Shown here in pieces: positions 9,026-31,193 of a DNA stretch of 64,000 nt. The stretch covers positions 132,541 to 196,540 of IMG/VR virus record IMGVR_UViG_3300027733_000030, one strand, 5' to 3'. Below the pieces are notes generated by a model, which saw only the letters and a program-made list of their open reading frames with translations, was not told the DNA's origin and searched no databases. How positions within the stretch are numbered: position 1 is the first letter of the stretch; each line of letters opens with the position of its first letter. The DNA comes from a virus. The translations under genes and the position numbers were made by a program.

Positions 9026-9046
9026 TCAATCTCCTTAAGATATAAT
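9018..9046 (+). promoter_or_regulatory. Sigma70/SigA-type promoter upstream of the recA operon
   Basis: TTGCTC-17 nt-TATAAT. Confidence 0.5.
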
Positions 9047-9068
9047 ATATATATCAATTATACCATTA

Positions 9069-9386: not shown

Positions 9387-10404
9387 TGAATTCGATATGG
9401 AGACTGGCGAGATTCTTATTCCCGCAGCTAAAAAAGTTATTGATAAAGAAGAATCAAAAGTATTAGAACTCGCAATCGCACAACTTCAACGTCAATACGG
9501 AGCTGGATCAGTCGTTAGACTCGGCTCAACTAATATCAAACCATGGGACTCAATCTCCACTGGAGCACTTACTTTGGATAGTGCACTTGGAATTGGTGGT
9601 TTCCCGCGCGGGCGCGTAGTAGAAATCTATGGACCTGAGTCATCAGGTAAGTCTACTCTCGCTCTAGCAACAGTAGCCAAGGCCCAGCAGATGGGCCTCA
9701 CGTGCGCCTACATCGACGCTGAGCATGCTTTAGACCCAGTCTACATGCAAGCCGTAGGAATCGATCTAGACAACCTTCTACTGGCTCAACCTGATTATGG
9801 CGAGCAAGGCTTCGACATTGCTGACAGACTCCTGCGCACAGGGGAAATTGGCGTCATCGTCATTGACTCAGTTGCAGCATTAGTTCCTAAAGCTGAGCTC
9901 GATGGCGAAATGGAACAAGCTCACATGGGCTTGCAGGCCCGTATGATGGCTAAAGCTATGCGTAAGCTTACTGGACTCGCTGCCCAGCACAACACTCTTA
10001 TTATATTCATTAACCAGCTCCGCAACAAAATTGGAATCATGTTTGGTAACCCAGAGACTACTCCTGGTGGAATGTCATTGAAGTTCTATGCTTCAGTCCG
10101 AATTGACGTCCGCAAAAAAGAAGATCTTAAGGACAAGGCCGGAAATCCAGTTGGCGTCAAAGTCAAAGCTAAGGTTATTAAGAATAAGATGGCACCCCCA
10201 ATGAAAATCGTAGAGTTCGACATCATCTATGCTCAGGGTATCGACGAGTACGGATGTATCTTTGACATCGGAATCGACAAGGGTATCTTTACCCAAAAGG
10301 GCGCATGGGTCTACTATAATGGCGAGAACTTTGCCCAAGGTAGAGATAACGCTATTGAGAAGTTAAAGGCTTCTCCTGATATTGTAGGTGTGATCAAAGG
10401 CTAA
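9379..10404 (+). CDS. recA: RecA recombinase
   Basis: GPESSGKST Walker A, YIDAEHALDP, IDSVAAL, QARMM, IFINQLR, GNPETTPGG, LKFYASVR; ATG at 9379 after AGGAAG is preferred over 9292. Confidence 0.97.
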   Translation: MTDEFDMETGEILIPAAKKVIDKEESKVLELAIAQLQRQYGAGSVVRLGSTNIKPWDSISTGALTLDSALGIGGFPRGRVVEIYGPESSGKSTLALATVAKAQQMGLTCAYIDAEHALDPVYMQAVGIDLDNLLLAQPDYGEQGFDIADRLLRTGEIGVIVIDSVAALVPKAELDGEMEQAHMGLQARMMAKAMRKLTGLAAQHNTLIIFINQLRNKIGIMFGNPETTPGGMSLKFYASVRIDVRKKEDLKDKAGNPVGVKVKAKVIKNKMAPPMKIVEFDIIYAQGIDEYGCIFDIGIDKGIFTQKGAWVYYNGENFAQGRDNAIEKLKASPDIVGVIKG

Positions 10405-10610
10405 TGAGTTTTATTCCAATATCTTGCGAGGACTGCAGCTTCCCGCCTAACTTTATTGTTCTTGAATTAAAAGACAAGGTAAATATCCCATACTACTCCA
10501 TCAAGTGCCGTGACTGTGGTGACTGCTGGGACGAACCGAATGAAAATTTTTTTGAAAATACACAGCCTTCTCTTTACGACGGAAATTTTTTTGAGAACGA
10601 TGACAAATAG
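10404..10610 (+). CDS. Small Zn-ribbon protein
   Basis: CEDC...CRDC; start overlaps the recA stop. Confidence 0.65.
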   Translation: MSFIPISCEDCSFPPNFIVLELKDKVNIPYYSIKCRDCGDCWDEPNENFFENTQPSLYDGNFFENDDK

Positions 10611-10703
10611 CTTACGCCTCTATCTCGAGTTCTCGCGTTTGTTTGCCGAACTGAAATAACCAGTACTATTACAGTATCTCATCTTTAAGAAAGAATGCTG
10701 TAG

Positions 10704-10994
10704 ATGGAATTTATACGTAGAATATTAGAGTTCTTTTCAGGTTCGTCCATGAAGCGAAATGGCAACATGATCAACTTTGTCTATGACCTAGAAGATGACA
10801 ACACTCAGCGTGTCGTCACCATCCATGCCGATCCTAATGGGTTCATGATCTTTACCATCTTCTCAGTCGAAGAATGGCAGATGATTGAAAGTATTGGCGA
10901 ACTATCGGAACGTGATGTTGAAGACATCGTACGCGAAATATCAGAAGACGAAAGCCTGACAACAATCACCATCGATCCCACGGAGTTTGAGTAG
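10704..10994 (+). CDS. Acidic hypothetical protein
   Basis: 96-aa ORF with consistent codon usage. Confidence 0.6.
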   Translation: MEFIRRILEFFSGSSMKRNGNMINFVYDLEDDNTQRVVTIHADPNGFMIFTIFSVEEWQMIESIGELSERDVEDIVREISEDESLTTITIDPTEFE

Positions 10995-11023
10995 ATTTCG
11001 CCCGGAATAAATAAGATATATAC

Positions 11024-11062
11024 AAAAGAGGTGCTACCCCCTAAAGGGTAACACCTCTTTTT
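11024..11062. terminator. Bidirectional intrinsic terminator between convergent genes
   Basis: AAAAGAGGTG-ctacc...ggtaa-CACCTCTTTTT. Confidence 0.7.
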
Positions 11063-11082
11063 GTTTTTATCACAGGGTGCTA

Positions 11083-11301
11083 TTAGTAATCATAACCGGA
11101 TTCGTAGCCTAGCTCTTCCCACACTTGGTTTCCATATGAGGAACCATAGTCCTTTACAGTCATTGCAAAGTTTGTATTAGCCATGCCTCCGAAGGGGTTT
11201 ACCCATTGGAAACAGTCAGGGCATCTTGTATTGGCTCCTGAGAGGTCTTCATTGACAATATATTCTGTACCACAGTGTGGGCAGTCCATAAATGATTTCA
11301 T
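11083..11301 (-). CDS. Small Zn-ribbon protein
   Basis: CPHC...CPDC; AAAGGA RBS. Confidence 0.65.
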   Translation of the reverse strand: MKSFMDCPHCGTEYIVNEDLSGANTRCPDCFQWVNPFGGMANTNFAMTVKDYGSSYGNQVWEELGYESGYDY

Positions 11302-11790
11302 GATTGTTCCTTTGTGATTGTAAGCATGGGATGCTGTGTGTGAATCATTCCCTATTGGGAACGTCTTGAACTATATCTACTACACGGCGTCTCTGTCAAC
11401 CTATGTTAGAAAATATTTCAAATTTTTTGGGGCGAATCTCTATATGGGAAAAATTATTAGGGAAAAATTTTTGGACTGAAATGGTTTTCAGGTGTTGCGG
11501 GCTTTTCTAATCTCGAGGGTCATTTGTTTCTAATCTCGAGGATATATAAACATATATAAACTTATTAAGGTAAAAACTAGGGAAAATTTATGGGGTGGTG
11601 ATAGTGAGTATATGTGTGTACCTTAATTTTTTAACGTGCCCACCCCCCCATGGGGTCATATGCTCTAGTAATAAACGACAATAAGCGGTCGTCCATACCC
11701 CTACGTATGGTGCAGGTATCCAGCATAAAAGGACAGCATAGGTGAATACGTTATCGCCGTCAATGAAACGTAGTATCAAAGGAGAATATA

Positions 11791-12090
11791 ATGATTACAT
11801 CAATGTTTGATGTTATAGGAAAGTATGCAGTAGATAGTGAGGGGAACATGTTACCCATGCGTAAGGAGACAGTAGCTATGTACTGCGCACACACGGGTAA
11901 TGAAATCTGGGTTAAGTCAACCCTACCTGGTGCAGACAGTACAGACGTACAACGGTTCGGACATGTGCATACTAACACTGCATGGTTCAACAGCCAGTAC
12001 AATAACCGCATGGTACTCATAGTTAGTGTCATGAAGTATGACTATAACATGGGTATTTGGTACTGGTACAACGAGGTACACAGCGCTTAG
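11791..12090 (+). CDS. Hypothetical protein, first gene of the GC-richer region
   Basis: AAAGGAG RBS, 99 aa. Confidence 0.65.
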   Translation: MITSMFDVIGKYAVDSEGNMLPMRKETVAMYCAHTGNEIWVKSTLPGADSTDVQRFGHVHTNTAWFNSQYNNRMVLIVSVMKYDYNMGIWYWYNEVHSA

Positions 12091-12120
12091 TTATTATACA
12101 TACCTAGTAGGGTAGGTATG

Positions 12121-12177
12121 GAGAAGGTGGTTCCTCAGGATCTTATGATTCTGGGGAACTTCCTTTTTTGAGGATAG
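12121..12177 (+). repeat. Repeat element R1: hairpin + T-tract + GAGGATAG
   Basis: AGAAGG-GTTCCTCAGGA/TTCTGGGGAAC-TTCC-T6-GAGGATAG. Confidence 0.8.
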
Positions 12178-12318
12178 GTCATTGTCCTTTAGTAAGGTTC
12201 GCCATGGGCCAACGGGTTCACCTCCCGCCAAAAGGTAGACATGGAAGATGGTTTTACCATTCGTAATAATCACGTTCAATACGTTAAGTTGAACAAAGGC
12301 ATGTTTCTAGGAGGAATC

Positions 12319-12588
12319 ATGTTGTCATTCATCAGTAAGAAGGTCACATTCATTGTGGCTGCAATTGTTGCAGTGTTGTTGGTATTGGAGCCAACAACCG
12401 ACTTGACAATGGCAGCATTGCGCTTGCCAAGCAAGTTTGTTTGGATGCTCTTGGGCCTCCTCTTCAGTATCGTTAACTGGGGAATGCTGATCCTTATCGC
12501 CATTGGTTTTGGCATTGGATTCATCATTAAGACCCGGACCATTGACTGGTCTGAAGTTAAGGGTTTCTTCAACAAAGAAGAAGCCTAA
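12319..12588 (+). CDS. Small membrane protein
   Basis: ATG at 12319 after GGAGG; two or three hydrophobic segments. Confidence 0.65.
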   Translation: MLSFISKKVTFIVAAIVAVLLVLEPTTDLTMAALRLPSKFVWMLLGLLFSIVNWGMLILIAIGFGIGFIIKTRTIDWSEVKGFFNKEEA

Positions 12589-12624
12589 TTAAAAGGGGGT
12601 GATGGTCCACCTCTTTAATAAAGA

Positions 12625-12682
12625 AGAAGGTTGTTTCCCCTGGGGCATTTGCCTTGGGGGAAACTTCTTTTTTTGAGGATAG
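12625..12682 (+). repeat. Repeat element R2
   Basis: AGAAGG-hairpin-CTTC-T7-GAGGATAG. Confidence 0.8.
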
Positions 12683-12712
12683 ATCAATGGGATCAGTCCA
12701 AGAAAGGAAACC

Positions 12713-12958
12713 ATGGAAAGAGGTACGTACACGTATCGGACACTCAGGGGTAATGACCTGGTGTTCCAGGTTGGAGGAAGCATGACGTATTGTCGTGTTT
12801 TCAGCCAACAAGGTGAGCTGGTCCACTACTATGGATCAGTTACACCTCCCAAGGTCAGTGAACAGGATGGTCAAACCATCGTCCTGTTTGAGGACTTTGA
12901 GGATGGATCGCGACGCCTTCATGGTGTTGCAATCCGTCCAGTCATTACCTTAGCGTAG
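12713..12958 (+). CDS. Hypothetical protein
   Basis: AAAGGA RBS; starts 30 nt after R2. Confidence 0.65.
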   Translation: MERGTYTYRTLRGNDLVFQVGGSMTYCRVFSQQGELVHYYGSVTPPKVSEQDGQTIVLFEDFEDGSRRLHGVAIRPVITLA

Positions 12959-13010
12959 TGGCTAGACAAAGGGTAGCGTCTTACCTTGCATACTAGCAAA
13001 GACGCACCAT

Positions 13011-13066
13011 AGAAGAAGTTGTTCCCGGGGATTTCGGTCCTCGGGAACTTCTTTTTTTGAGGATAG
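13011..13066 (+). repeat. Repeat element R3
   Basis: GTTCCCGGGGATTTCGGTCCTCGGGAAC-TTC-T7-GAGGATAG. Confidence 0.85.
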
Positions 13067-13107
13067 GGGAAAGGCCCCTAGCTCATTCTCTTGAAAGGGG
13101 AATTGTT

Positions 13108-13251
13108 ATGAGTCAAACATACGAATGTGCAGAAGGAATGTGTCAGGATGTAGTGTCCTGGTCACTATCCGGGGTGCTTGCAGCAGCGGGCATCGTAATC
13201 ATCACTGTGTTCGTTGTTACGGTGATCATCGGAGAAATCCGACGCAAATAG
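13108..13251 (+). CDS. Small single-pass membrane protein
   Basis: ATG at 13108 after AAAGGGG; hydrophobic core. Confidence 0.55.
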   Translation: MSQTYECAEGMCQDVVSWSLSGVLAAAGIVIITVFVVTVIIGEIRRK

Positions 13252-13265
13252 GAAAGTAAGTTAGT

Positions 13266-13320
13266 AGAAGGTTTGTTCCCGGGGATTTCGGTCCTCGGGA
13301 ACTTCCTTTTTTTGGCATAG
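13266..13320 (+). repeat. Repeat element R4
   Basis: 28-nt hairpin identical to R3, then TTCC-T7-GGCATAG. Confidence 0.85.
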
Positions 13321-13382
13321 GCGCTAGGCCTCTAGCTACAGTCAACTAACACTGTTGTAAAAAGTTAGTAAGAAAGGTAATC

Positions 13383-13586
13383 ATGTCAAAAGGACCATGG
13401 GAGGAAAACTCCATGTGGACTCCGGATCTCCAAGATTCGGAGCTTGCTACGGATGTAGCCCATACATGTTTGAGGTGTCAAGAACTGGAAGCTGAATTAG
13501 AAAAGTGGAAGGACACGGCGCGTACATGGATGTGGACAGCTGCAGACGCATCAGGTGTGGACATATCGGATGCGTTAGACAATTGA
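13383..13586 (+). CDS. Hypothetical protein
   Basis: AAAGGT RBS, 67 aa. Confidence 0.6.
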   Translation: MSKGPWEENSMWTPDLQDSELATDVAHTCLRCQELEAELEKWKDTARTWMWTAADASGVDISDALDN

Positions 13587-13640
13587 GCAATGCTCACACC
13601 AAGGAGTAGTGATCCTATACATACTTATATAATTCACTAA

Positions 13641-13693
13641 AGAAGGAGGTTCTCGGGAGATATTTCCCGGGAACTTCCTTTTTTTGAGGATAG
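13641..13693 (+). repeat. Repeat element R5
   Basis: AGAAGG-GTTCTCGGGAGA/TTCCCGGGAAC-TTCC-T7-GAGGATAG. Confidence 0.85.
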
Positions 13694-13735
13694 ACCGCCG
13701 GTCAATCTCACCAGCTGATGGAGGTCAGCAAACTA

Positions 13736-13911
13736 TGAAACATAAACCAACTCTAGGATATTTTAATATCCTCGATTGGGAGATGGATAAGATTGCATGC
13801 AAGTCATGCAGTGCTGTCTTGGTCTCTCAAGGAAGTCAAATATGTGACTCATTTATAGGAAAGGATCTTATCTGTCCTATTTGCGAGTTGGACATTGACG
13901 ACGCACAATAG
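13736..13911 (+). CDS. Small Zn-ribbon protein
   Basis: ATG at 13736 after GGAGG; CKSC...CPIC. Confidence 0.6.
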
Positions 13912-13937
13912 TAATAGTCAATGAATAAGTAAGTAAA

Positions 13938-13990
13938 AGAAGGTCGTCCCTGGGGAGAAATCCCTGGGGACTTCCTTTTTTTGCCGATAG
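13938..13990 (+). repeat. Repeat element R6
   Basis: AGAAGG-GTCCCTGGGGA-GAAA-TCCCTGGGGAC-TTCC-T7-GCCGATAG. Confidence 0.8.
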
Positions 13991-14142
13991 ATCGTTGGCC
14001 CTTAAACAGGAGGTAGAAATGTAATGAATATCACCGTTGTTGAAACGGTGGGATATTCCATTGTTTATGGAGAATCCTACCATTTAGTAATAATAGACCC
14101 TTCTCTACCCCCCGCCTAGGAGTATTGCTTACTGACCTTAGA

Positions 14143-14161
14143 TTCCTTTTTTTGACGATAG
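14143..14161 (+). repeat. Partial repeat element R7 (no hairpin) upstream of the RNAP-like gene
   Basis: TTCC-T7-GACGATAG followed by GCCATTGGCCTTTAG, resembling the R1 downstream flank GTCATTGTCCTTTAG. Confidence 0.65.
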
Positions 14162-14248
14162 GCCATTGGCCTTTAGTCACACGTAAGGTTCCACGCCAGG
14201 GCCAACAGTATGTGCTCTGTAGAAAAGCACACAGAAAGGGAGGGAGAG

Positions 14249-16648
14249 ATGTCATATTTCCATGGCATTGTGGTCCTCGCTGGAAGGTGGCTTCGGCTGC
14301 TGACTGGTGCAGACCATGTCCCGGGTACCACCGTCAAAGAAGAGTTTCAGGGAGGACAATATGTCCCCGCGTTCCTGGAGCACTTCTGGGCAGGTCGGTA
14401 CCGCGTCGAGGTGCGTAAGCTGTTCAGCCGTAAGGTTGGATCGTTGGAAAGCGCACCTGCCGTCACCAATAAGGAGCTGTTCTCTAGCGAAGTAATTCGT
14501 TGGAGCAACTCCTCGGACCAGTACATGTTGCGCATTAAGGGCAACAATGGCTGGCTTGCTAGCTTCAAGGAAATCGGTCTTCTGATCGCTAACTCCAAGA
14601 AGATGAGCAAGAGGTTAGTAGAACTCGTGCGCATGTCGTGCATGTGGCTCTACATACCCGAGGACAAAGCCCTTGAGGTTGACGTCATCGATCACAAAGC
14701 GTTGGGCATGCCTGACGAATATGTGGACGGTGCGACGTTCATCACCCGTGGGCTCGCAATCAAGTGCGTGAAGTCGAATACTTCGGCAACACGTGCTTGG
14801 CGGGCTCGGATGATCTGGAACATTCGCAATGGCAGTCTTGTCGTTGTGCAGTTCCGGATGCTCTGCGCGCTTGGAGAGATCAAAGGCAATGCCGTGATCA
14901 CTCCTCGTAAGCAGATGCAAGGCTACGAAGTTCGGACGTTTGCGCCGAATATCAAGGCTGAGATCCGAACCACTGGGTGGCAATGGGTCACATTGGAGCC
15001 GTCTTACGGGACGATTCCAGTGAAGTCTGACGATCTGACACATTCCATTTACTGGGATGTTAAGGGTCTGTATGACCACGACTCACTCCTGGCATGCCTG
15101 GAATCCTCTTTGAAGCAATTCAAGGAGGACTTGGTGGCTGGCAAACGCTCTGAATGGATGGAGAAACTCGCTGAAAGCAGTGGGTCTATCCTACATGAAG
15201 AGTCGGAGGTAAAGTATGCAAAGGATCGTGGCCTAGTTGGCAGGATTCAGCATGCGGTTGCTCAACTTAGTAAGTTGGGTGTACCTCTACACGCCAGTCA
15301 AACCCTGATGTTCCTCTCGGTCAATGGTTTGCGAAAGCAGCTGTTGGGCGACAATCGTCAGGGTGAGGTGTGGATGGACAAGTCTCGTCACTGGTTTCCA
15401 GTGTCGTGGGCTTATGCCGCTCACATCTATACCAAGGAAGTCCTCGAAATCGGTGGGTTTAAGATGCCCACTGGTAACGAAGGCTTCTTCCATGAGGCTA
15501 CCCACAGCTTCGTGGTACCTGGCCAGTTCTTGAAGGATAACTTTGAGAACTGGGGAGGTCCTGACTTGGATGATACTGTAAAGGTGCATGTGCGCCGAGT
15601 ATCAGACAAACAGGGCAAGGTCAAGTTGATGGGAATTGTCATGCGCAATCCGAATGATTTCGGTGAGTATGCGATGATTCCACTCAACGAAACCGGACCA
15701 ATATTCCACGACTATGGTGCTGAGCCCCCGCTGGTGGATCTGCAGGAACTATCTAGTAAGGTTCCGCAGTTCACAAAGCTGAAGAAGCATCTGAACATCG
15801 GATCTCTTCCGGCGATCACTAATCCACGTAAGCGTGGTGACGTGTTCTCGCTGGAGGATGAGTCGGCTGTTCGGCTTGCATCACAGGCTTTTCCACCAGG
15901 AATGGGCGGAACGGTCATCCCAAAGATGATCTGGTACGCTCAGTTCGGGAAGCCCATTGAGGAGTTGGTTGCAACTAACGAAGACATCGTTGATGTTCTT
16001 CAGCAGGGGCAAGCTTCTCTGGAGGATGTGCAGTTGATCAAGCAATGGATCGACAACACATTCACCACAATGGGCGAAAAGCTCAACTGGGAAATGGACC
16101 GCTTCTGGTTCATGACCCGGATGCCAGCACCGTTGGCAGAGTTATGGGAAACCTCATCCGAGGAAGTATCGCCTTGGGTCACACTCCATAAGGAGCGTGA
16201 GAACCTTGTGCGTCAGTACATTAAGGAAATGACGGATTGGCTGAATAGTCAAGTCGTTATGCCCGAAGTGCTGGCAAACATCAACTGGACTCCAGAAGAG
16301 CGCGCAAACGCTTGGAGGGAACTCCAGAAGATCAAAGAGGTTCATCAAGCAGCTCGAAACAGTAGTCTCACCTGGTGTGATTACTTCGTAGAGCTGATGA
16401 CCAAGAGCGATGAAGAGCATGGTAAAGAACGTACTGATCGTAAGATCTTGCGTTTGGCACACCAAGCCATCCTCGCGAAGGCTCAAACGCCAGGAGCAAA
16501 CCATGATCAGTGGCTGTTCTCGTTCAACGCTAAGAGCGAAATGCAACCGTACATGTTCTATGTGCGTGCTCTCAAGCGTGTTCAAGACGGAACCTATTCA
16601 TGGTTGCCCGCATCAGCAAGTCCGATTATTGAGGACATAGGGAGCTGA
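14249..16648 (+). CDS. Putative single-subunit two-barrel (QDE-1/YonO-like) RNA polymerase, paralog 1
   Basis: YVDGATFIT, QFR...GEIKGNA, NIKAEIR, GGPDLDD (15554-15574), VMRNP; colinear with 28644-31193; ATG at 14249 after AGGGAG. Confidence 0.65.
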   Translation: MSYFHGIVVLAGRWLRLLTGADHVPGTTVKEEFQGGQYVPAFLEHFWAGRYRVEVRKLFSRKVGSLESAPAVTNKELFSSEVIRWSNSSDQYMLRIKGNNGWLASFKEIGLLIANSKKMSKRLVELVRMSCMWLYIPEDKALEVDVIDHKALGMPDEYVDGATFITRGLAIKCVKSNTSATRAWRARMIWNIRNGSLVVVQFRMLCALGEIKGNAVITPRKQMQGYEVRTFAPNIKAEIRTTGWQWVTLEPSYGTIPVKSDDLTHSIYWDVKGLYDHDSLLACLESSLKQFKEDLVAGKRSEWMEKLAESSGSILHEESEVKYAKDRGLVGRIQHAVAQLSKLGVPLHASQTLMFLSVNGLRKQLLGDNRQGEVWMDKSRHWFPVSWAYAAHIYTKEVLEIGGFKMPTGNEGFFHEATHSFVVPGQFLKDNFENWGGPDLDDTVKVHVRRVSDKQGKVKLMGIVMRNPNDFGEYAMIPLNETGPIFHDYGAEPPLVDLQELSSKVPQFTKLKKHLNIGSLPAITNPRKRGDVFSLEDESAVRLASQAFPPGMGGTVIPKMIWYAQFGKPIEELVATNEDIVDVLQQGQASLEDVQLIKQWIDNTFTTMGEKLNWEMDRFWFMTRMPAPLAELWETSSEEVSPWVTLHKERENLVRQYIKEMTDWLNSQVVMPEVLANINWTPEERANAWRELQKIKEVHQAARNSSLTWCDYFVELMTKSDEEHGKERTDRKILRLAHQAILAKAQTPGANHDQWLFSFNAKSEMQPYMFYVRALKRVQDGTYSWLPASASPIIEDIGS

Positions 16649-16840
16649 CGCAGTACTCCTTGAGATAGGAGAACATCCTAGTTAGGTTTACATAACTAAC
16701 TGGAAGAAGGATGCCCCTGGGATTCAGTAGAAATACTGTTTCCTGGGGGCTACCCTTATAAAATTAATTTGCTATGAACGAGGTAGCTCTCGTCTGCGAC
16801 ATTGAAAGCAGTACCTGTGGGATTAAAAAGACCGCTAAAT

Positions 16841-16891
16841 GAGGAGGTTGTTGGGAAGAAATTCCTGGCAACCTCCTTTTTTTGAGGATAG
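16841..16891 (+). repeat. Repeat element R9 (a hairpin-only variant, R8, lies at 16705-16757)
   Basis: GAGGAG-GTTGTTGGGA/TTCCTGGCAAC-CTCC-T7-GAGGATAG. Confidence 0.8.
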
Positions 16892-17009
16892 TTCACTAGC
16901 CTCAAGCGCAGAACCTGAGCGCTCTATAAAGTATGGGTGACGCTGCAGGAGCTAAATCCTGACAGGAATTCCAACCTTGACAAATGGAATCAGCCAAGGA
17001 GGCACAAAA

Positions 17010-17378
17010 ATGGAAGCAATCAAGACAGCAAAGGATGGCCGTCAGTACACGGTCATCAATGGCAAAGCAGTCTTCATCAAGGGTTCAAAGCCCGTGGTGA
17101 AAGCTGCTGTCGAGATGGCACCGGCACCAACGCCAGCACAGACCAAGGGCATTGCCTGCGGTAATTGCAGTGGCAAGCACAGCACTGTTCAAGAAGTGCG
17201 CGCATGCTTTGGCGTGACCGTCGTCAACACCAAGTGGACAGCTCGTCCTACTGCAGTTATTACTGACCTTGACAAGAAAGTCATGGTTACCTGTGGTTGG
17301 GGCAAGGCAAGCCACAAGGTCGAGATGACCAAGGCCGATGCCATTGCATTCCGCAACACCTGCGAGCAGCATCGCTGA
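17010..17378 (+). CDS. Protein with C-x2-C-x3-H-x8-C zinc finger
   Basis: ATG at 17010 after AGGAGG; CGNCSGKHSTVQEVRACF. Confidence 0.7.
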   Translation: MEAIKTAKDGRQYTVINGKAVFIKGSKPVVKAAVEMAPAPTPAQTKGIACGNCSGKHSTVQEVRACFGVTVVNTKWTARPTAVITDLDKKVMVTCGWGKASHKVEMTKADAIAFRNTCEQHR

Positions 17379-17380
17379 TC

Positions 17381-17611
17381 ATGGCTTACAACCATCACAA
17401 TCAGCACTGCGGTCTCAGGGCAGATGGTTGCGAAGGTTTCATCTTCAAGGGCAATGGGCGATTCGTCGCTTACCCCTACAAGATGCTCCTTTGCGCCAGC
17501 TGTTACGAGACATGGTTGCAGCGGAATTCCGAAGGTAAGAAGAAGGCGTCTGACAAGCGCAATCTCAAGAACCTTCGAGACAGCCAGCCCACACTCTTCG
17601 ACCAGGAGTGA
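17381..17611 (+). CDS. Small Cys/His protein
   Basis: ATG at 17381 directly after the previous stop; HC...C...CASC. Confidence 0.6.
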   Translation: MAYNHHNQHCGLRADGCEGFIFKGNGRFVAYPYKMLLCASCYETWLQRNSEGKKKASDKRNLKNLRDSQPTLFDQE

Positions 17612-17625
17612 GCTGAAGAAGACTG

Positions 17626-17675
17626 AAGTCCCACTACACATCAAGTGTAGGAGGGACTTCTTTCTTTGAGGATAG
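17626..17675 (+). repeat. Repeat element R10
   Basis: GAAGTCCC...GGGACTTC-TTTCTTT-GAGGATAG. Confidence 0.75.
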
Positions 17676-17906
17676 ACTATTCGGGTCAGTCCACAAACGA
17701 AAGGAATGATCATGTACAAACCATTCAAAGAAGGGTGTGATCACGAAATGACAGAACCATCTGCTATTGGAGGCAAAAACATAGGCCTTGAATGGGAGAT
17801 AGTTAATCATTGGAGCCACTGCACAAAATGCTGGGGCACCAAAGTGACGCAAGAAATGCTGTGGATCGGAGAGGGTCCAGATCCCCGAAATGAGGAGGAA
17901 AGTGCT

Positions 17907-18470
17907 ATGGACAAACCATTGTATAAGGTAGCCTTTACAGGTCATCGCCCCAACAAAATTGGGGGATACAATGCAAAGACACCAATGCGTGTTGCTGTTA
18001 CTGAAGCCATTAACAACGCTCTTGCACGAGCAGTGGCCAAGTATGGTGAGACACATGAAGTGGTTGTCATCAGTGGAGGCGCTCTTGGCGTTGATACCGA
18101 TGCAGCACGGGAGGCTCATAAGATGGGTCTTCGGTTCATGATTGCAGCACCTTGCCGAAATCAGGACATTAAATGGCCTGCTGAAAGCAAGTTGACCTAC
18201 AAGAAGATGTGCGGATTTGCAGATGCAGATCTAGCTCGTACTCTTGCTAGCGACGGTGAAACTATTGAAGACGGTGTTATATACGTCTACAATGGTGAAT
18301 ACACCACGGCAAAGGTCATGCAGGACAGGAACATCTGGATGGTAGATCACGCTGACAGTGTGGTTGCTATTTGGGATGGCACGTCTGGTGGCACGGGAAA
18401 CTGTGTGGGTTATGCTCGCAACAAGCAAAAGCCCATGGTTGTAATCAACCCCACTAAGCTGCTTAGTTAA
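17907..18470 (+). CDS. SLOG superfamily YspA/DUF1273-like protein
   Basis: AFTGHRP, VISGGALGVD, RNIWMVDHAD, WDGTSGGTGNCVGYA; ATG at 17907 after GAGGAGG (the ORF extends in frame to 17706). Confidence 0.85.
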   Translation: MDKPLYKVAFTGHRPNKIGGYNAKTPMRVAVTEAINNALARAVAKYGETHEVVVISGGALGVDTDAAREAHKMGLRFMIAAPCRNQDIKWPAESKLTYKKMCGFADADLARTLASDGETIEDGVIYVYNGEYTTAKVMQDRNIWMVDHADSVVAIWDGTSGGTGNCVGYARNKQKPMVVINPTKLLS

Positions 18471-18487
18471 TAGTTTAGTAAGTTATC

Positions 18488-18570
18488 GAAAGGTTGTTCC
18501 CGGGGAGAAATCCTCGGGGACTTCCTTTTTTATCATAGACCATTACACTTAAATTCTTTTTTTATGATAG
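18488..18570 (+). repeat. Repeat element R11 plus a second T7-ATGATAG
   Basis: GAAAGG-GTTCCCGGGGA-GAAA-TCCTCGGGGAC-TTCC-T6-ATCATAG; TTC-T7-ATGATAG at 18554-18570. Confidence 0.75.
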
Positions 18571-18786
18571 GCACTTATTCTAAATCCCTCCGTGGATTGG
18601 GATAGGTTCCTAGTCCAGTTCTCTTTGCCTGTATTCTAAATCCCTCTGGGAGCATGCTGGCAAAAAGAAGGGGTTGTTTCCTTCCATAAAAAGAAGGGAG
18701 CAGTCCCCCCAGAGCATCTTCTGGGTAATAAAAAAGAAGGGTGACAATCCCGTCATCCGTCCAACGCATCAAAAGGAGAATATACC

Positions 18787-19185
18787 ATGCGTTTCATAGT
18801 TGCTAAACTCGGCATTGTTTCCGAGAAAACTGGAAAGACTCAAGTTGTCTTTCTGCCCGAAAACCAAGATGCCCCTGTTTGGGTGTCTGCTTGGTTGGCT
18901 ACCTCGTTCGTTGAAGAGCAGGTTGTGCCCGGCGTCGAAATCCTCGCGGAATCGGCGTCGCTAACCAAGTTGGAAACGTCGTACGAAAAGGACGGCGTTG
19001 TTGTGGGGTTGAAGTCCCCTCGTCGTTCGGTCATCTTCGGTGGTACAGTTTCGGCTGTTGCCCCAGAAGGTAACCCGTTGCCCGAAGTCGTCTATGCTAA
19101 GTCTGAATCTACTTCGGCTTACGTTCAGGCGTTTCGTGCTAAGCAGGCAATGAAGTCTGCAGATTTGGGTACTGACTCGTTCTGA
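18787..19185 (+). CDS. Hypothetical protein (possible OB-fold-like beta protein)
   Basis: AAAGGAG RBS, 132 aa, beta-rich pattern. Confidence 0.65.
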   Translation: MRFIVAKLGIVSEKTGKTQVVFLPENQDAPVWVSAWLATSFVEEQVVPGVEILAESASLTKLETSYEKDGVVVGLKSPRRSVIFGGTVSAVAPEGNPLPEVVYAKSESTSAYVQAFRAKQAMKSADLGTDSF

Positions 19186-19470
19186 GTCTTGTGCCGTACT
19201 TTGTCCGTTTCGCGGGCTCACCTCAGAGTAATATCTGGGGTGGGCTCGCCTTATTTTTTAACGCCCTGTCTCAGGACCCCTCGCTTCGCTCGGGATCGCT
19301 GAGCCAGTGCGGGCTTCGCCAATATGGTGAAGTCATATCTTTTTTTAAAATAGAACCTAGATCCTAGGTATCTATTCTAAATTTTTAAAATAGAATAGTA
19401 GATTAATCTATTGTTCAAACAAAAAAGAAGGGGAGTAATCCCACCAACAAAAGCCCTAAGGAGGCACACA

Positions 19471-19797
19471 ATGCACACATTAGGAATCATCCTAATCGGA
19501 ATGGCCTTAGGTATAGCTATGCTGTATCTAACTAATTTCATTGTCAGTAAAGCAAATGCTCGTCTTAACTATGGACAGAAGGTCCGTTTTGAAAGCGAAG
19601 TCATTGGACATATTTCAGTTTGTCGTTATCACGGCGTCAAGAAGTATTTCTTCACAACAAAGAACTTTGGGCCATTAAACCCTACTTCTTTCTATGAACG
19701 TGAAGATGCAATCTCAGCATGTCGCAAAGCTCATCTTGATGAAATGCTCAAAGAACAAGCTGAACGTCCTAAGCAAACATCGTTTCCAAGAGCGTAA
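19471..19797 (+). CDS. Protein with N-terminal membrane anchor
   Basis: ATG at 19471 after AGGAGG. Confidence 0.65.
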   Translation: MHTLGIILIGMALGIAMLYLTNFIVSKANARLNYGQKVRFESEVIGHISVCRYHGVKKYFFTTKNFGPLNPTSFYEREDAISACRKAHLDEMLKEQAERPKQTSFPRA

Positions 19798-20027
19798 ATT
19801 CTTGGTTAGCCTTCTTGCGGGCTATTCCTCTCAGAAGGAATCAAGGGATTGGATCATATGATCCTCTCCCAGCAACCAATCTTCCCTCCCAGGTTGAGCG
19901 TCCTTGCCATATACCCCCCTTTCGTATGGTAAGGATGCTCCCTGAGGGAGTTTATAGATCTTTGGTAATAACTTTTTTTTAAAAAAATAGATCTCTTCTA
20001 AAAAGAAGGGTTAGTAAAAGGAGAAAA

Positions 20028-20210
20028 ATGAATAAAATTACACTAAAAGTAATGATGGCAGTATATGCCGGATCATTCCTTGCTGGATTCATCTACGCAT
20101 TCGGCACAGAAATGCAAAAACAAAAGATGGAAATCAAACATACTCCATCAATTGAATTCCAAAATCTAGTCAACCACTACAACAACAAACAGAAAGAGAA
20201 AGTGTCATGA
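20028..20210 (+). CDS. Small membrane protein
   Basis: AAAGGAG RBS; hydrophobic N-terminal half. Confidence 0.6.
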   Translation: MNKITLKVMMAVYAGSFLAGFIYAFGTEMQKQKMEIKHTPSIEFQNLVNHYNNKQKEKVS

Positions 20211-20410
20211 AAATCGTACAAACAGCCGGAAAACTCTTCGGCAAAACCGTAGCCGTCAGTAAGAATGCGCCTTCAAAGACTGTCAAAGTCAGCAAAGCTG
20301 CATCCTCAAAGACCAAGAAGGCTCTTGTAAATGCAAAAGATGACTTGGTCGCCGGCTTCAATCAAGGTGCACAACGGACTTCAGATTCTGACGTCATTGA
20401 CATCAAGTAA
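20207..20410 (+). CDS. Small basic protein
   Basis: ATGA overlap; Lys/Ser/Ala-rich. Confidence 0.6.
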   Translation: MKIVQTAGKLFGKTVAVSKNAPSKTVKVSKAASSKTKKALVNAKDDLVAGFNQGAQRTSDSDVIDIK

Positions 20411-20582
20411 TAAAACCTTTGTTGGGAGTATAGCAACATCGCTATGCTCTCAACAAAAAAATTTACAATAGTATTCTAAAACTATTGTGAACATAGAAAA
20501 AGAAGGGACTTGACAAATGTCATATCCCAAATAATCAAAAGTAATTACATCCCCATTAAACACCTAACAGAAAGATATACTT

Positions 20583-28643: not shown

Positions 28644-31193
28644 ATGGCAAGTCGAATATATGAGCACAACCTGCGGTTACAAGCTTTGCTTGGTGGACCG
28701 CTTCGTGGTGGTGAATCCTATCAGTTTGGATTCTATGATGCAGGTGTCCTGCGTCAAGCTCTAGATACCGTAGGTTCTGGAGGTTATAAAGTTTGGACTC
28801 TTCCGATTCCTCAGAATCAACAAGAGTTCAACCGTGCGAAAGAACTTGTGAATGATCCTAAAGTGCAGTATGCTCTTGTGGATAAGAACAAGATTGTTTT
28901 CGTAGTTATCGAAGACAGCCCTGGCTGGATGAGTGTTATTGATAAGCTTGGCTATGAAGTTATGTCTGGTCCCAAGACCAATAAAAGACTTAAGTCGCTT
29001 CATCGTCCAACCCTCCTCAATGCTCACTTTACTCATCTCAATATTAAATTCGTGGAACCTACTGAGTTCTCACGTTATAATTTTGTAGATGAAAATGATG
29101 ATTGGGGCGTATCATCAGAATTCCGCAATCCTGAAGTAATCGAAAGATTACTTGATGGCGGTTTCGTTATTAGTCGTAGAATTGTTCAGGAATCTGTAAA
29201 GAATCTACCTACATATAATCCTGATAACTCTACTGATAATCAAGATTATTACTATGATCCTCACATTCGCAAGAATCTTGTGAAAGATCTACTGGATTCA
29301 TCTGTGTTTAATGCTCGCATTATCTTCGCAGATGGATTCATTAAGGGCAATGCATTCGTTGCAGATCTCCCTGACGGTATTGATGTTATTACTTCACGTA
29401 CTAATATCAAGAAGGAAATCCGATATACTGAAGGATTTCGTTTCCTAGCAGAACCTCAAGGACCAAAGTCTCGTGTCATCACCGATGATCAGACTGTTCT
29501 CAACTTTCCTAAACTATTCCGCAAAAGCGACATGACTATGTGGCTCACGGAAGAGTATAAGAAAATGTATGCAGATGCTACTAGTGGTAACTTGTTAACT
29601 AACTGGAAGTATATCTATCAGCGCACTTGGCGTGATAAAGATGATCTCAATGATAACGAAGCACGTGCTCGCATGGCTTATGTTGGTTATCGTTGGACTG
29701 CTGCAGGATTTAAAATTACGGAATCTCCGTGGCTTTTCGAGACTGTAGCTATCTCTCACGCTAAACCACTGCTCGAACGTATTCCAATTCCTTGTTCAGT
29801 CTATGAACAGATTGTTCCGGAATCGCTCGTGCGCATGGCTGGTTATGATGTAGAGGTTGAAGAAGGTACGATTATTCGTATCAATGAACTTGGAGTTCAT
29901 GTCGTCAATGATGTTGACTGGCTTGAGATGTATGAATCTCATGGCGGTCACGATCAAGATGACTTCTTTAAGCTCTTCTATCGTGACATGGAAGGCGGAG
30001 ATAATGATGGCGAGAAAATGGTTATCGCAATCAGATCTCCAAATGGCTATGGCGAGTATACCATGTTCCGTCATGTTGAAGGATCATGGTCTCCGAGCTG
30101 GTATAAAGCTGATGGAACTCAAGTTAAGTTCCCTAAAGTTAATGGTCGCAACTGGCCCAAGCGTCTAAGCGAAGCCATCGCTGCTAAGCAGGTTGTTTAC
30201 TCAGGTTTGCCTTCGGCATCTAAACCAAAAGTAAATCGTTCTGGTCCATATACTCAAGATGATGTTCTTCGTGATATCACTATTGCTATGGCTGGTGGCA
30301 ATGTAGGCGGTTTCGTAAACGCATGCATGGCTCACTCCATGGTGATCGGTAAGCATCGCCCAGTACAACTCTGTTCACTGGAAGATGCTATCGATAAATG
30401 TATTAATCCTGACGATGCTCAGGATGTTATTGCTATCGATAGCGAAGCTAATCTTATGATGCGCGAAGTTATTGAATCAGGTAAACCTATCGATGAATAC
30501 ATCTGGTATGATCGTGGGTTTGCTCGCTTTCTTAAGCGAGATGAAACTGTTGAACTTTATGAAGGTAAAATCTCGCAAGTTATTAACTTGTGTAGTACAT
30601 TTTACAATGAATATGTTCAACAGATTCGTGCTTGGTCTCAAGAAAACGCACGTCCAGTTGACATCATTCACACTTTAGGTAGTCGTATGTATTGCTTTGC
30701 AATTCCAGTACTACGTGATTTCAGAATGAAACTGTTTAACAACAACACCACTGAACAAACTATTAGTAATGGAGTTATCCAGCGCAATAGTTGGGAAAAT
30801 CTCTACCAAAATATTGTAGATATTATCAATTCATATGAACGAATTCAAGATAGATTTGATTTCGTTCTTGCATTGTATTCTGCTACTATCCAAATTCCAA
30901 CTTCGTATGGTAAGGTTACCGATCAAATCGTTATGAATCGATTTGTCTATCCTTATTTGGAAGCAGCTCTACAGTATTATGGTGTAGCTAATATTCCTGT
31001 CTACAACAATACTAGTGGTCAAGTCAAGATTCAGATTATGAAGAATGACGAATGGTATTGGCCGGATAACAATGGTGTTAACCAGCGTTACACTAAGGCT
31101 ATTGACTTTCAGAATGCTCATTCTGAGAATTCTCCAGTAATATTCACTATGCCTCCGGCACGTCCTATGACGTTAACAAAGTCAATTATTTAG
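28644..31193 (+). CDS. Putative single-subunit two-barrel (QDE-1/YonO-like) RNA polymerase, paralog 2
   Basis: LLDGGFVIS, NAR...GFIKGNA, NIKKEIR, GGHDQDD (29943-29963), AIRSP, VGGFVN; AGGAGG RBS. Confidence 0.7.
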   Translation: MASRIYEHNLRLQALLGGPLRGGESYQFGFYDAGVLRQALDTVGSGGYKVWTLPIPQNQQEFNRAKELVNDPKVQYALVDKNKIVFVVIEDSPGWMSVIDKLGYEVMSGPKTNKRLKSLHRPTLLNAHFTHLNIKFVEPTEFSRYNFVDENDDWGVSSEFRNPEVIERLLDGGFVISRRIVQESVKNLPTYNPDNSTDNQDYYYDPHIRKNLVKDLLDSSVFNARIIFADGFIKGNAFVADLPDGIDVITSRTNIKKEIRYTEGFRFLAEPQGPKSRVITDDQTVLNFPKLFRKSDMTMWLTEEYKKMYADATSGNLLTNWKYIYQRTWRDKDDLNDNEARARMAYVGYRWTAAGFKITESPWLFETVAISHAKPLLERIPIPCSVYEQIVPESLVRMAGYDVEVEEGTIIRINELGVHVVNDVDWLEMYESHGGHDQDDFFKLFYRDMEGGDNDGEKMVIAIRSPNGYGEYTMFRHVEGSWSPSWYKADGTQVKFPKVNGRNWPKRLSEAIAAKQVVYSGLPSASKPKVNRSGPYTQDDVLRDITIAMAGGNVGGFVNACMAHSMVIGKHRPVQLCSLEDAIDKCINPDDAQDVIAIDSEANLMMREVIESGKPIDEYIWYDRGFARFLKRDETVELYEGKISQVINLCSTFYNEYVQQIRAWSQENARPVDIIHTLGSRMYCFAIPVLRDFRMKLFNNNTTEQTISNGVIQRNSWENLYQNIVDIINSYERIQDRFDFVLALYSATIQIPTSYGKVTDQIVMNRFVYPYLEAALQYYGVANIPVYNNTSGQVKIQIMKNDEWYWPDNNGVNQRYTKAIDFQNAHSENSPVIFTMPPARPMTLTKSII

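What the first reader, a model, noticed from the sequence alone, without database searches (positions are those of the whole stretch)
12121..18570. Early-region gene cassettes separated by a repeated hairpin-T7-GAGGATAG element (terminator fused to a candidate phage promoter)
Seen: about ten copies (12121, 12625, 13011, 13266, 13641, 13938, 14143, 16841, 17626, 18488; hairpin-only copy at 16705) of AGAAGG-[variable GC hairpin]-CTTCC-T6-7-(GAGG)ATAG. Many are followed by a looser NNCANTGGCCYYTAG (e.g. GTCATTGTCCTTTAG, GCCATTGGCCTTTAG, GCGCTAGGCCTCTAG), then an RBS and one or two short ORFs. Hairpin stems covary (R3 and R4 are identical; the others differ but still pair), while the sequence 3' of the T-tract is conserved although a terminator does not need it. 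One copy lies upstream of RNAP paralog 1 and a variant (AAGGATAG) follows the paralog 2 terminator at 31249. Inference: each unit terminates one transcript and starts the next, so ATAG-box promoters may be read by one of the phage polymerases. Such repeats could also shuffle gene cassettes by recombination, as described for PeSL elements of T4-type phages.
Basis: partly seen in the sequence, partly recalled or inferred. Interest (0 to 1): 0.8.

Follow-up and report, generated by a model that had tools for sequence, protein, structure and literature searches.

The report
Terminator-promoter units bounding shuffled phage cassettes
A roughly 196-kb uncultured freshwater phage separates its first-expressed genes with a repeated unit that joins a strong terminator hairpin to a conserved, non-bacterial-type promoter box, and related phages gain, lose and reorder small genes exactly at these units.

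Summary
Window 12121-18570 holds 11 same-strand units. Nine have a 12-15 bp GC hairpin (-23 to -31 kcal/mol), then CTTCC, T6-7 and (GAGG)ATAG. Two have no hairpin, and one terminator has no box.

The pattern TTTTTTNNNNATAG gives 13 hits against 0.69 expected. In a 134-kb relative and in two complete 202 and 210 kb relatives, the box occurs only in one block just upstream of the same polymerase gene. It is always on the coding strand.

Distant relatives have unrelated hairpins but a 20-nt box, GTTTTYYYTTTATGGGTAG. Conservation stops at TAG. In three relatives the array opens with a hairpin-less box in a divergent intergenic region, with nothing upstream to terminate. No sigma-70-type -10 or -35 fits.

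Between close relatives, cassettes are inserted, deleted and transposed, and the junctions lie within about 15 nt of the box.

The two "RNAP paralogs" are supported: the model of paralog 2 matches QDE-1, RDR2 and Thermus phage gp64. A third, tail-module paralog is probable.

My best reading is a PeSL-like terminator/promoter cassette system whose promoter is read by a phage two-barrel RNA polymerase. That polymerase is probably virion-delivered, as in Thermus phage P23-45. No transcript data could be obtained, so promoter function is inferred.

The parts
12121..12177 (+). Unit 1: A-tract + 14-bp hairpin + CTTCC-T6-GAGGATAG, followed by a long conserved leader
   Evidence: -28.9 kcal/mol; 96% identical in L001 4162-4383
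12625..12682 (+). Unit 2: hairpin + T7 + GAGGATAG; small 5' stem GATC-N5-GATC; ATG 30 nt after TAG
   Evidence: (-28.6)
12713..12958 (+). Cassette ORF, 81 aa. It is shared with L001 but sits at a different position in that array.
13011..13066 (+). Unit 3: hairpin + T7 + GAGGATAG; 5' stem GGGG-N5-CCCC
   Evidence: (-25.1)
13266..13320 (+). Unit 4: stem identical to unit 3; box T7-GGCATAG
   Evidence: (-25.7)
13641..13693 (+). Unit 5: hairpin + T7 + GAGGATAG
   Evidence: -29.1
13938..13990 (+). Unit 6: hairpin + T7 + GCCGATAG
   Evidence: -27.3
14142..14161 (+). Unit 7: hairpin-less box ATTCC-T7-GACGATAG + GGCC-ATT-GGCC stem, directly upstream of polymerase paralog 1
   Evidence: -5.0, no hairpin; conserved in L001 at 9938-9952
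14249..16648 (+). Two-barrel (QDE-1/YonO-type) RNA polymerase paralog 1 (P0001)
   Evidence: Paralogy to P0002; Atlas neighbours carry PF05183 RdRP; 132 family representatives
16703..16757 (+). Box-less, T-tract-less hairpin after paralog 1
   Evidence: -30.8 kcal/mol, z = -4.5
16841..16891 (+). Unit 8: 17-bp hairpin + T7 + GAGGATAG, followed by two ORFs (17011-17378 and 17382-17611)
   Evidence: (-26.7)
17626..17675 (+). Unit 9: hairpin + TTTCTTT + GAGGATAG, followed by the YpsA/SLOG-domain gene (17706-18470)
   Evidence: (-23.1)
18487..18538 (+). Unit 10: hairpin + T6 + ATCATAG
   Evidence: -27.8
18554..18570 (+). Unit 11: hairpin-less T7 + ATGATAG; last box of the block
28644..31193 (+). 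Two-barrel RNA polymerase paralog 2 (P0002). It lies outside the block and sits behind a different terminator/promoter-like motif.
   Evidence: AF2 pLDDT 86; Foldseek QDE-1 E = 5e-9, RDR2, phage gp62/gp64; upstream motif

Best explanation
Each unit is a two-part transcription punctuation mark.

Its 5' half is a strong intrinsic terminator: an A-tract, a GC hairpin and a U-tract. The T-tract of that terminator overlaps the 5' part of a promoter of about 20 bp (CTTCC-T7-GAGGATAG here; GTTTTYYYTTTATGGGTAG in most relatives). I predict that transcription starts at or just after the final G. The RNA then begins with a short stem-loop, a Shine-Dalgarno site and one or two small ORFs.

The units delimit one block of first-expressed ('pre-early') genes. 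The block has its own codon usage and includes the gene for polymerase paralog 1.

The promoter does not look like a bacterial sigma-70/sigmaA promoter. It is most likely read by a phage two-barrel RNA polymerase that is already present at infection. The best candidate is the tail-module paralog, by analogy with the tape-measure-fused virion polymerase of Thermus phage P23-45.

Because the units are near-identical 60-nt patches, they also act as homology sites at which cassettes are inserted, deleted and reordered, as PeSLs do in T4-like phages.

Shown: the repeat, the hairpins, box conservation and confinement, the breakpoints, and the polymerase fold of paralog 2.
Inferred: promoter activity, the start site, the identity of the polymerase, and the recombination mechanism.
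For: 1. Enrichment and strand bias. TTTTTTNNNNATAG gives 13 hits against 0.69 expected, all on the + strand.
2. Confinement. The 134-kb relative G001 has 15 hits, 14 of them in the 5.7 kb upstream of the paralog-1 gene. In the complete genomes G004 (202 kb) and G005 (210 kb), YTTTRTGGNTAG occurs 10 and 17 times. All copies lie in one block next to the paralog-1 gene, all on the coding strand; the controls give 0-1.
3. Conservation. In 80 distinct units from five distant relatives (polymerase 44-48% identical), positions -19 to -1 are near-invariant. Information content drops from about 1.8 to 0.2 bits at +1. The hairpins upstream are unrelated in sequence.
4. Hairpin-less copies keep the T-tract and the box. 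In G004, G006 and G003 the first box of the array has no hairpin. It lies in a divergent intergenic region after a minus-strand gene and before the first + strand ORF.
5. A start site far downstream is excluded. The shortest real distance from TAG to a start codon is 27-30 nt and includes the SD.
6. No sigma-70 fit. If TTGAGG were the -35, the start site would fall inside the SD. If TAGnnn were the -10, it would lack T at position 6 in 24 of 25 copies in the window clade, and T there is only 49% in the main clade. The consensus scan finds no promoter in the spacers.
7. Polymerases. The P0002 model matches QDE-1, RDR2 and Thermus phage gp62/gp64. P0254, in the tail module of the close relative, shares GGFDLDD...RQPSGPEE. 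It aligns about 250 residues to the QDE-1/RDR2 catalytic region at Z = 7.0.
8. Precedent. In P23-45 a virion polymerase reads a strongly conserved promoter in a pre-early block that contains the non-virion polymerase gene (PMC10770324).
9. Shuffling. Window and L001 flanks are 92% identical, but the window has 6 cassettes where L001 has 13, and shared cassettes stand in a different order. Between G003 and G005, cassettes are inserted and transposed with HSP ends 0-15 nt from a box. Overall, 24% of 92 homology endpoints fall within -20 to +15 nt of a TAG, against 5.7% for random positions.
10. A distinct expression class. GC3 is 0.55 in the block against 0.25 in later genes. The six phage tRNAs mostly read A-ending codons that the block uses less.
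Against: - No transcript ends, and no RNA data of any kind, could be obtained.
- The hairpin plus U-tract is the classic terminator of bacterial RNA polymerase. That would fit host transcription of the block.
- Evidence that the tail-module protein is a polymerase is only moderate: hhalign to the paralog-2 profile is not significant and the best Foldseek E-value is 0.02. I read that protein in the 92%-identical relative, not in the window's own genome.
- Some homology endpoints near units may reflect unit-to-unit similarity rather than true junctions.
- AT-rich -10-like sequences lie upstream of the first box in G004. A host promoter there, with the boxes acting as RNA-level signals, is not excluded.
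Confidence: 0.55

Rival explanations
1. The box is an early promoter for the host RNA polymerase. The sigma would be the host's sigmaA, an alternative sigma, or a sigma modified by an injected phage factor. On this reading the element is a true PeSL equivalent for an actinobacterial host.
For: - PeSLs of T4-like phages are exactly such composites (PMC2839356).
- The terminators are canonical for bacterial polymerase.
- Actinobacterial promoters often lack a recognisable -35.
- TAGnnT would resemble the TANNNT -10, and 49% of main-clade copies have T at that position.
- WhiB and DUF732 genes point to an actinobacterial host.
Against: - 24 of 25 window-clade copies lack the T at position 6.
- Conservation covers about 20 contiguous positions and stops at TAG, rather than forming two hexamers.
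- TTGAGG as the -35 would put the start site inside the SD.
- The consensus scan finds nothing in the spacers.
- The phage carries TATAAT-type sequences elsewhere, for example at 9040-9060. The box is therefore a separate class.
Confidence: 0.2
2. The box is not a promoter. It would be a downstream part of the termination signal, a pause or antitermination site, or an RNA processing and stability signal. The block would then be transcribed from one upstream promoter by read-through.
For: - In P23-45, seven pre-early termination sites carry a conserved 26-nt motif (PMC10770324).
- The box always follows a T-tract.
- AT-rich promoter-like sequence lies upstream of the first box in G004.
- The small stem right after TAG would suit a processed, protected 5' end.
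Against: - Nine hairpins of -23 to -29 kcal/mol, each with T6-7, in series would leave little read-through.
- Hairpin-less boxes stand where nothing upstream needs terminating.
- A box without a hairpin directly precedes the polymerase gene in the window and in L001.
Confidence: 0.15
3. The units are selfish miniature mobile repeats, or sites for a dedicated recombinase, with no role in transcription beyond the hairpin.
For: Breakpoints coincide with units. Copy number differs between close relatives. Metagenome assemblies break at the array.
Against: - Orientation is strictly that of the genes, always intergenic, at a fixed distance to the SD and ATG.
- The box is conserved across clades while the rest of the unit changes.
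- I saw no integrase or transposase in the block; the small cassette ORFs themselves were not searched (one search failed).
- Ordinary homologous recombination (the phage encodes a RecA at 9292-10404) would be enough.
Confidence: 0.05

Closest known systems
PeSL (promoter-early stem-loop) cassettes of T4-like phages (Arbiol et al. 2010, PMC2839356; Comeau et al. 2014, PMC4122927)
   Same: Both are composite terminator/promoter motifs with G-run/C-run stems, repeated many times in a hyperplastic region. They flank small ORFan genes. Indels, replacements and reordering between close relatives have junctions in the motif.
   Different: The PeSL promoter matches the E. coli sigma-70 consensus and is read by host polymerase; here no -10 or -35 fits. 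The lineage is unrelated: an uncultured jumbo phage of about 200 kb, probably of freshwater Actinobacteria. All copies sit in one block that contains a phage polymerase gene. Mini-circles were not tested.
Pre-early promoters and terminators of Thermus phage P23-45, read by the tape-measure-fused virion RNA polymerase gp96 (Chaban et al. 2024, PMC10770324)
   Same: Both phages have two-barrel phage polymerases. Both have a strongly conserved A/T-rich promoter motif confined to a block of first-expressed genes that includes the non-virion polymerase gene, and conserved sequence at termination sites in that block. A second promoter class follows. The model of paralog 2 matches gp62/gp64 structures.
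   Different: I could not compare the motif sequences, because the P23-45 motifs are given only in figures. Here the promoter is fused to a canonical hairpin terminator, there are three paralogs, and the virion candidate is a separate 1622-aa tail-module protein rather than a tape-measure fusion. All function here is inferred.
Phage-specific promoters of single-subunit polymerases (T7/T3/SP6 class; N4 virion polymerase hairpin promoters)
   Same: The motif is a contiguous block of about 17-23 bp, near-identical between copies, that ends at the start site, is strand-specific and defines a temporal class. Specificity differs between related phages (GAGGATAG versus ATGGGTAG).
   Different: The polymerases belong to an unrelated fold family. 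The hairpin here lies upstream of the T-tract and is dispensable, since hairpin-less copies exist, so it is not an N4-type promoter hairpin.

Membership tests
PeSL | Stable stem-loop able to terminate upstream transcription | tested here: met
   Nine hairpins at -23 to -29 kcal/mol followed by T6-7. Termination itself was not assayed.
PeSL | Sigma-70-consensus early promoter inside the motif | tested here: not met
   No -10 or -35 with correct spacing; position 6 of TAGnnn is not T in 24 of 25 copies.
PeSL | Many near-identical copies flanking small ORFans in a hyperplastic region | tested here: met
   11 units in the window, 14 in L001, 8-22 in each of five other relatives.
PeSL | Indel and replacement junctions between close relatives lie in the motif | tested here: met
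   (24% of endpoints at the box against 5.7% for random positions).
PeSL | Excised mini-circles carrying one cassette plus a chimeric motif | not testable with these tools
   Needs inverse PCR or long reads.
Intrinsic (rho-independent) terminator | GC-rich stem-loop followed directly by a U-tract | tested here: met
   Units 7 and 11 lack the stem; the hairpin at 16703 lacks the U-tract.
Phage-polymerase-specific promoter | Contiguous conserved block ending at the start site, strand-specific, restricted to one gene block, conserved in relatives | tested here: met
Phage-polymerase-specific promoter | Primary transcript 5' ends at the motif; initiation by the purified polymerase | not testable with these tools
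Bacterial sigma-70/sigmaA promoter | -10 TAnnnT (A at -11, T at -7), with or without -35 TTGACA at 16-18 bp | tested here: not met
Two-barrel (QDE-1/YonO/gp64-type) RNA polymerase, for P0002 and P0001 | Double-psi beta-barrel catalytic core fold | tested here: met
   P0002 model pLDDT 86; QDE-1 E = 5e-9, prob 1.0; RDR2; phage gp62/gp64. P0001 is linked by paralogy and by Atlas RdRP neighbours.
Two-barrel (QDE-1/YonO/gp64-type) RNA polymerase, for P0002 and P0001 | Metal-binding DxDxD/DxDGD aspartate triad | tested here: inconclusive
   Both carry D-x-D-D (DLDD, DQDD); the equivalent columns D437/D439/D440 are invariant in 24 homologues of P0002. This is a variant, and its activity is untested.
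Two-barrel RNA polymerase, for tail-module P0254 | Catalytic core fold and motif | tested here: inconclusive
   GGFDLDD is invariant in 28 homologues. QDE-1/RDR2 at Z = 7.0 over about 250 residues, but Foldseek E = 0.02 and hhalign is not significant.

The most novel reading that the evidence does not exclude
The block is a self-shuffling array of pre-early gene cassettes. It works like an integron without an integrase. One 60-nt unit is at once the terminator, the promoter for a virion-delivered two-barrel RNA polymerase, and the recombination site. Any ORF dropped between two units is therefore automatically expressed in the first minutes of infection. Promoter specificity has shifted between clades (GAGGATAG versus ATGGGTAG) together with the fast-evolving virion polymerase.
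Probability: 0.3. Interest if true: 0.8.

Novelty: new variant of a known kind. Interest (0 to 1): 0.66.

Why it matters
Promoters of two-barrel single-subunit phage polymerases are almost unknown. The YonO promoter sequence is undefined (PMC5467207), and P23-45 is the main worked case I found. Here about 130 natural copies from eight phage contigs (108 tabulated) give a sharp candidate consensus, two specificity variants and hairpin-less controls. These can go straight into in-vitro transcription with three candidate enzymes.

The finding also extends the PeSL idea, in which regulatory punctuation doubles as a recombination site, from T4-like coliphages to an unrelated and abundant freshwater phage lineage, and from host-type to phage-type promoters.

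The cassettes are the first genes expressed. They are therefore a likely reservoir of host-takeover and anti-defence genes that turns over quickly.

The arrays also break metagenome assemblies, which matters for recovering genomes of this group.

Tried and rejected
- DNA and protein searches of the INPHARED phage collection found no match.
- No whole genome is held for the window.
- Rfam gave only one sub-threshold miRNA chance hit in 11500-21000.
- Pfam and PHROGs gave nothing for P0001 or P0002. A profile search of PDB sequences gave nothing.
- hhalign of P0254 against the paralog-2 profile was not significant.
- The wide VIA search with the P0254 model returned only helical-hairpin matches at Z of 8 or below.
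- PHROGs gave nothing for P0254 or for the 2212-aa neighbouring protein.
- A Pfam scan of the small cassette ORFs failed on a coordinate error and I did not repeat it. The cassette proteins therefore remain unannotated.
- My first regex scans for relatives' boxes were too strict or too loose, and I replaced them.
- N4-type hairpin promoter: rejected, because hairpin-less copies exist and the stems are 12-15 bp.
- ECF-type GGAAC -35 in the descending stem arm: rejected, because it is absent from hairpin-less copies.
- A mini-ORF starting at the ATG of ATGGGTAG: rejected, because the window clade has no ATG there.
- Integron attC sites and mycobacteriophage stoperators were considered from memory only: I saw no integrase, and the orientation and spacing fit transcription signals better.
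- The 31249 'variant': rejected as a terminator followed by an SD.


Full report
**What is there.** Window 12121-18570 contains 11 units on the + strand. Nine have the full form. It starts with an A-rich run (AGAAGG) that pairs with CCTTCT. Then comes a 12-15 bp GC-rich stem with a 4-nt loop, CTTC(C), T6-7, and an 8-mer ending in ATAG (GAGGATAG in six copies). The hairpins fold at -23.1 to -29.1 kcal/mol. Two copies (14142-14161 and 18554-18570) keep the T-tract and box but have no hairpin. One hairpin (16703-16757, -30.8 kcal/mol, z = -4.5) has neither T-tract nor box. TTTTTTNNNNATAG matches 13 times, all on the + strand, against 0.69 expected. The consensus scan finds 34 terminator-like sites in 8-24 kb against 12.6 in shuffles, and no excess of sigma-70-like sites (27 against 29.7).

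**Context.** The window is part of an uncultured phage of about 196.5 kb from freshwater lake metagenomes. It has no relative in the INPHARED collection. WhiB and DUF732 genes downstream point to an actinobacterial host. The array lies about 3 kb after a strand-switch region (8717-9292) and a phage recA (9292-10404). Its GC content is 45-51%, against 30-40% elsewhere. GC3 is 0.55 in the block and 0.25 in later genes. The six phage tRNAs (Arg-TCT, Asn-GTT, Leu-TAA, Lys-TTT, Thr-TGT, Ile-TAT) mostly read A-ending codons; AGA, TTA and AAA are used about half as often in the block, while ACA and ATA are not. The same GC rise marks the homologous block in relatives. The block therefore looks like a separate expression class, plausibly translated before phage tRNAs accumulate.

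**The polymerases.** The 812-aa (P0001, inside the block) and 849-aa (P0002, 28644-31193) proteins have no Pfam or PHROG hit. They are distant paralogs that share G-G-x-D-x-D-D ... R-x-P-N-x-x-G-E-Y. An AlphaFold model of P0002, built from 24 homologues, has pLDDT 86. It matches QDE-1 (E = 5e-9), plant RDR2, and the Thermus phage polymerases P74-26 gp62 and gp64. The language-model neighbours of P0001 are phage clusters carrying PF05183 RdRP. 'RNAP paralogs' is therefore supported, with a D-x-D-D variant of the metal motif. Other first-stage notes pointed to a third paralog in the tail module. I checked this in the 92%-identical relative. There, a 1622-aa protein (P0254) lies between a 2212-aa protein and a 1464+-aa protein with an endolysin-like domain. 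P0254 carries GGFDLDD...RQPSGPEE, and these residues are invariant in 28 homologues. Its modelled core (pLDDT 75) aligns about 250 residues to the catalytic region of QDE-1 and RDR2 at Z = 7.0, while unrelated hits cover only about 55 residues. However, the best Foldseek E-value is only 0.02 and hhalign is not significant. I rate it a probable polymerase, not a proven one.

**Comparative evidence for the box.** A relative with a 94% identical paralog 1 (L001, IMG/VR contig of 134 kb) has 14 units in the 5.7 kb upstream of that gene. It has only one other pattern match in the whole contig. More distant relatives have paralog 1 at 44-48% identity: the two complete genomes G004 (202 kb) and G005 (210 kb), plus G003, G006 and L014. 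Each has 8-22 units directly upstream of the paralog-1 gene. Their hairpins are unrelated in sequence to those of the window. The downstream part, however, is a near-invariant GTTTTYYYTTTATGGGTAG. In 80 distinct copies, positions -19 to -1 carry 1.0-2.0 bits each. Information content falls to about 0.2 bits at +1, with only a weak A-G-R-Y-Y at +6 to +10. In the two complete genomes the box occurs 10 and 17 times. Every copy lies in that one block on the coding strand, and the controls give 0-1. L013 (paralog 1 at 51% identity) has T8-ATGACTAG behind a hairpin almost identical to the window's. The common core is thus a T-rich tract followed by R-W-G-R-N-T-A-G. Termination does not require this core, yet it is the best-conserved part of the unit.

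**Promoter or something else.** Five observations favour a promoter with a start at or next to the TAG.
- Conservation is contiguous over about 20 nt and stops abruptly at TAG. Phage-polymerase promoters behave this way (my knowledge of the T7 class).
- Hairpin-less copies keep the T-tract, so the T-tract belongs to the downstream signal as well as to the terminator.
- In G004, G006 and G003 the first box of the array has no hairpin. It stands in a divergent intergenic region, after a minus-strand gene of about 185 aa and before the first + strand ORF, where there is nothing to terminate.
- A hairpin-less box directly precedes the polymerase gene in both the window and L001.
- The shortest real distance from TAG to a start codon is 27-30 nt and already contains the SD. 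A start site more than about 15 nt downstream is therefore impossible.

Right after TAG the window clade has a small inverted repeat. Its stem shows compensatory changes: 14 double changes against 5.3 expected, with the best score at zero slide. Across 108 units, the first 35 nt fold better than shuffled sequence (mean z = -1.0). This would suit a protective 5' stem-loop.

**Which polymerase.** A sigma-70/sigmaA reading fails on the tests I could run. TTGAGG as the -35 would put the start inside the SD. TAGnnn as the -10 lacks the T at position 6 in 24 of 25 window-clade copies, and T there reaches only 49% in the main clade. TATAAT-like sequences exist elsewhere in the phage, so the box is a class of its own. 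That leaves the host enzyme or a virion-delivered one. The closest worked precedent is Thermus phage P23-45. Its tape-measure-fused virion polymerase transcribes a pre-early block, including the non-virion polymerase gene, from a strongly conserved AT-rich motif. Conserved sequence also marks the termination sites of that block, and the non-virion enzyme uses another motif (PMC10770324). Here a second motif class (TTCTAAA ... AAAAAGAAGGG) starts immediately after the last box. It occurs on the + strand only, between 18.6 and 23.5 kb, and also follows paralog 1 in L013 and L014. A third motif (T8-ATTGTACATACAAAAA) precedes paralog 2 and recurs at 62919. A three-step cascade is thus a reasonable working model: virion enzyme, then paralog 1, then paralog 2 and/or the host. 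It rests on analogy, not on data from this phage.

**Cassette turnover.** Window and L001 are 92% identical on both flanks (L001 1-3587 matches W 8165-11746; L001 9724-12390 matches W 13909-16596). Between the flanks, the window has 6 cassettes in 2 kb and L001 has 13 in 5.7 kb. The three shared cassettes stand in a different order. In G003 against G005, the flanks are collinear at 84-90%. Inside the array one cassette pair is swapped and others are present or absent. The alignment ends lie 0-15 nt from the box TAG (G003 12758, 15054 and 15710; G005 36253, 36597, 37255 and 39549). Over eight pairwise comparisons, 24% of 92 homology endpoints lie within -20 to +15 nt of a TAG, against 5.7% for random positions. 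For the whole unit the figures are 42% against 20%. One caveat is that some short alignments may be unit-to-unit matches. Two independent metagenome assemblies also end at the array, as expected for a repeated and population-variable region. This is the behaviour described for PeSLs (PMC2839356, PMC4122927). The difference is that PeSL promoters are sigma-70 consensus sequences. The phage's own RecA and ordinary homologous recombination over 50-60 nt patches would be enough; I see no evidence for a dedicated recombinase.

**Verdict.** The repeat is real and highly non-random. It is a composite of a strong intrinsic terminator and a conserved box that is very probably a promoter of a non-bacterial type. 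It bounds mobile cassettes in the first-expressed block of a new jumbo-phage lineage that encodes two, and probably three, two-barrel RNA polymerases. It works like a PeSL but fails the PeSL criterion of a sigma-70 promoter, so I file it as a new variant of that kind. What is missing is any RNA evidence. The start site, the polymerase and the efficiency of the terminators remain predictions.

Noticed in passing
window 18576-23528 (+); also L013 2812-3145 and L014 12386-13598: A second repeated motif class begins right after the last ATAG box: TATTCTAAA(T) followed at variable distance by AAAAAGAAGGG. The exact AAAAGAAGGG occurs 7 times, on the + strand only. It also follows the paralog-1 gene in distant relatives. 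It is a candidate promoter or leader class for the next temporal step, perhaps read by paralog 1.
   Followed up: partly
window 28544-28620 and 62919-62957: A terminator hairpin, T8 and ATTGTACATACAAAAA lie directly upstream of polymerase paralog 2. The same 24-mer recurs at 62919. This may be a third terminator/promoter composite class.
   Followed up: no
window 12000-20000 versus the rest; tRNAs at 25946, 26314, 35653, 35789, 37874, 39873: The block has GC3 of 0.55 against 0.25 in later genes. The six phage tRNAs mostly decode A-ending codons (AGA, TTA, AAA, ACA, ATA); AGA, TTA and AAA are used about half as often in the block. The same GC rise is seen in the homologous block of five relatives. 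This may be host-like codon usage for genes translated before phage tRNAs are made.
   Followed up: partly
P0126, P0128, P0129, P0137, P0141 (homologues of window 14249-16648); window 17706-18470: Some homologues of polymerase paralog 1 carry N-terminal PIF1-type helicase, NADAR or DUF4326 domains. The window's block itself encodes a YpsA/SLOG-domain protein. These are odd partners for a transcriptase. They hint at a link to ADP-ribose or nucleotide-based conflict systems, or to priming.
   Followed up: no
window 8717-8830: The divergent intergenic region has two copies of an AT-rich direct repeat of about 36 nt (…TATTATTATAT.TTAACATATAAG…), followed by a G-rich tract (GGGGGGAAGGGGGGAAGGGGGGG). 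This may be an origin or a bidirectional control region. C-rich tracts also precede hairpless first boxes in G004 and G006 and unit 7 in the window.
   Followed up: no
window ~16690 and ~18688: The IMG/VR contig of the close relative ends just after paralog 1, and JGI contig Ga0114977_10000005 begins just after the last box. Assemblies break at the array.
   Followed up: partly
window 18660-18745: Three tandem AAAAAGAAGGG segments look like internally deleted left arms of the hairpin units, that is, decayed copies. They lie in the leader of the ORF at 18787.
   Followed up: no
window 43412-43422 (- strand): This is the only exact TTTGAGGATAG outside the array. It is antisense inside the ORF 43026-45005 and has no T-tract or hairpin, so it is probably chance.
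   Followed up: yes
window 12178-12322; L001 4239-4383 and 6600-6700: The long leader after unit 1 is conserved up to the start codon (…TTTCTAGGAGGAATCATG), while the ORF behind it differs between relatives. The same SD module recurs at another cassette in L001. Cassette replacement can therefore end exactly at the ATG.
   Followed up: partly
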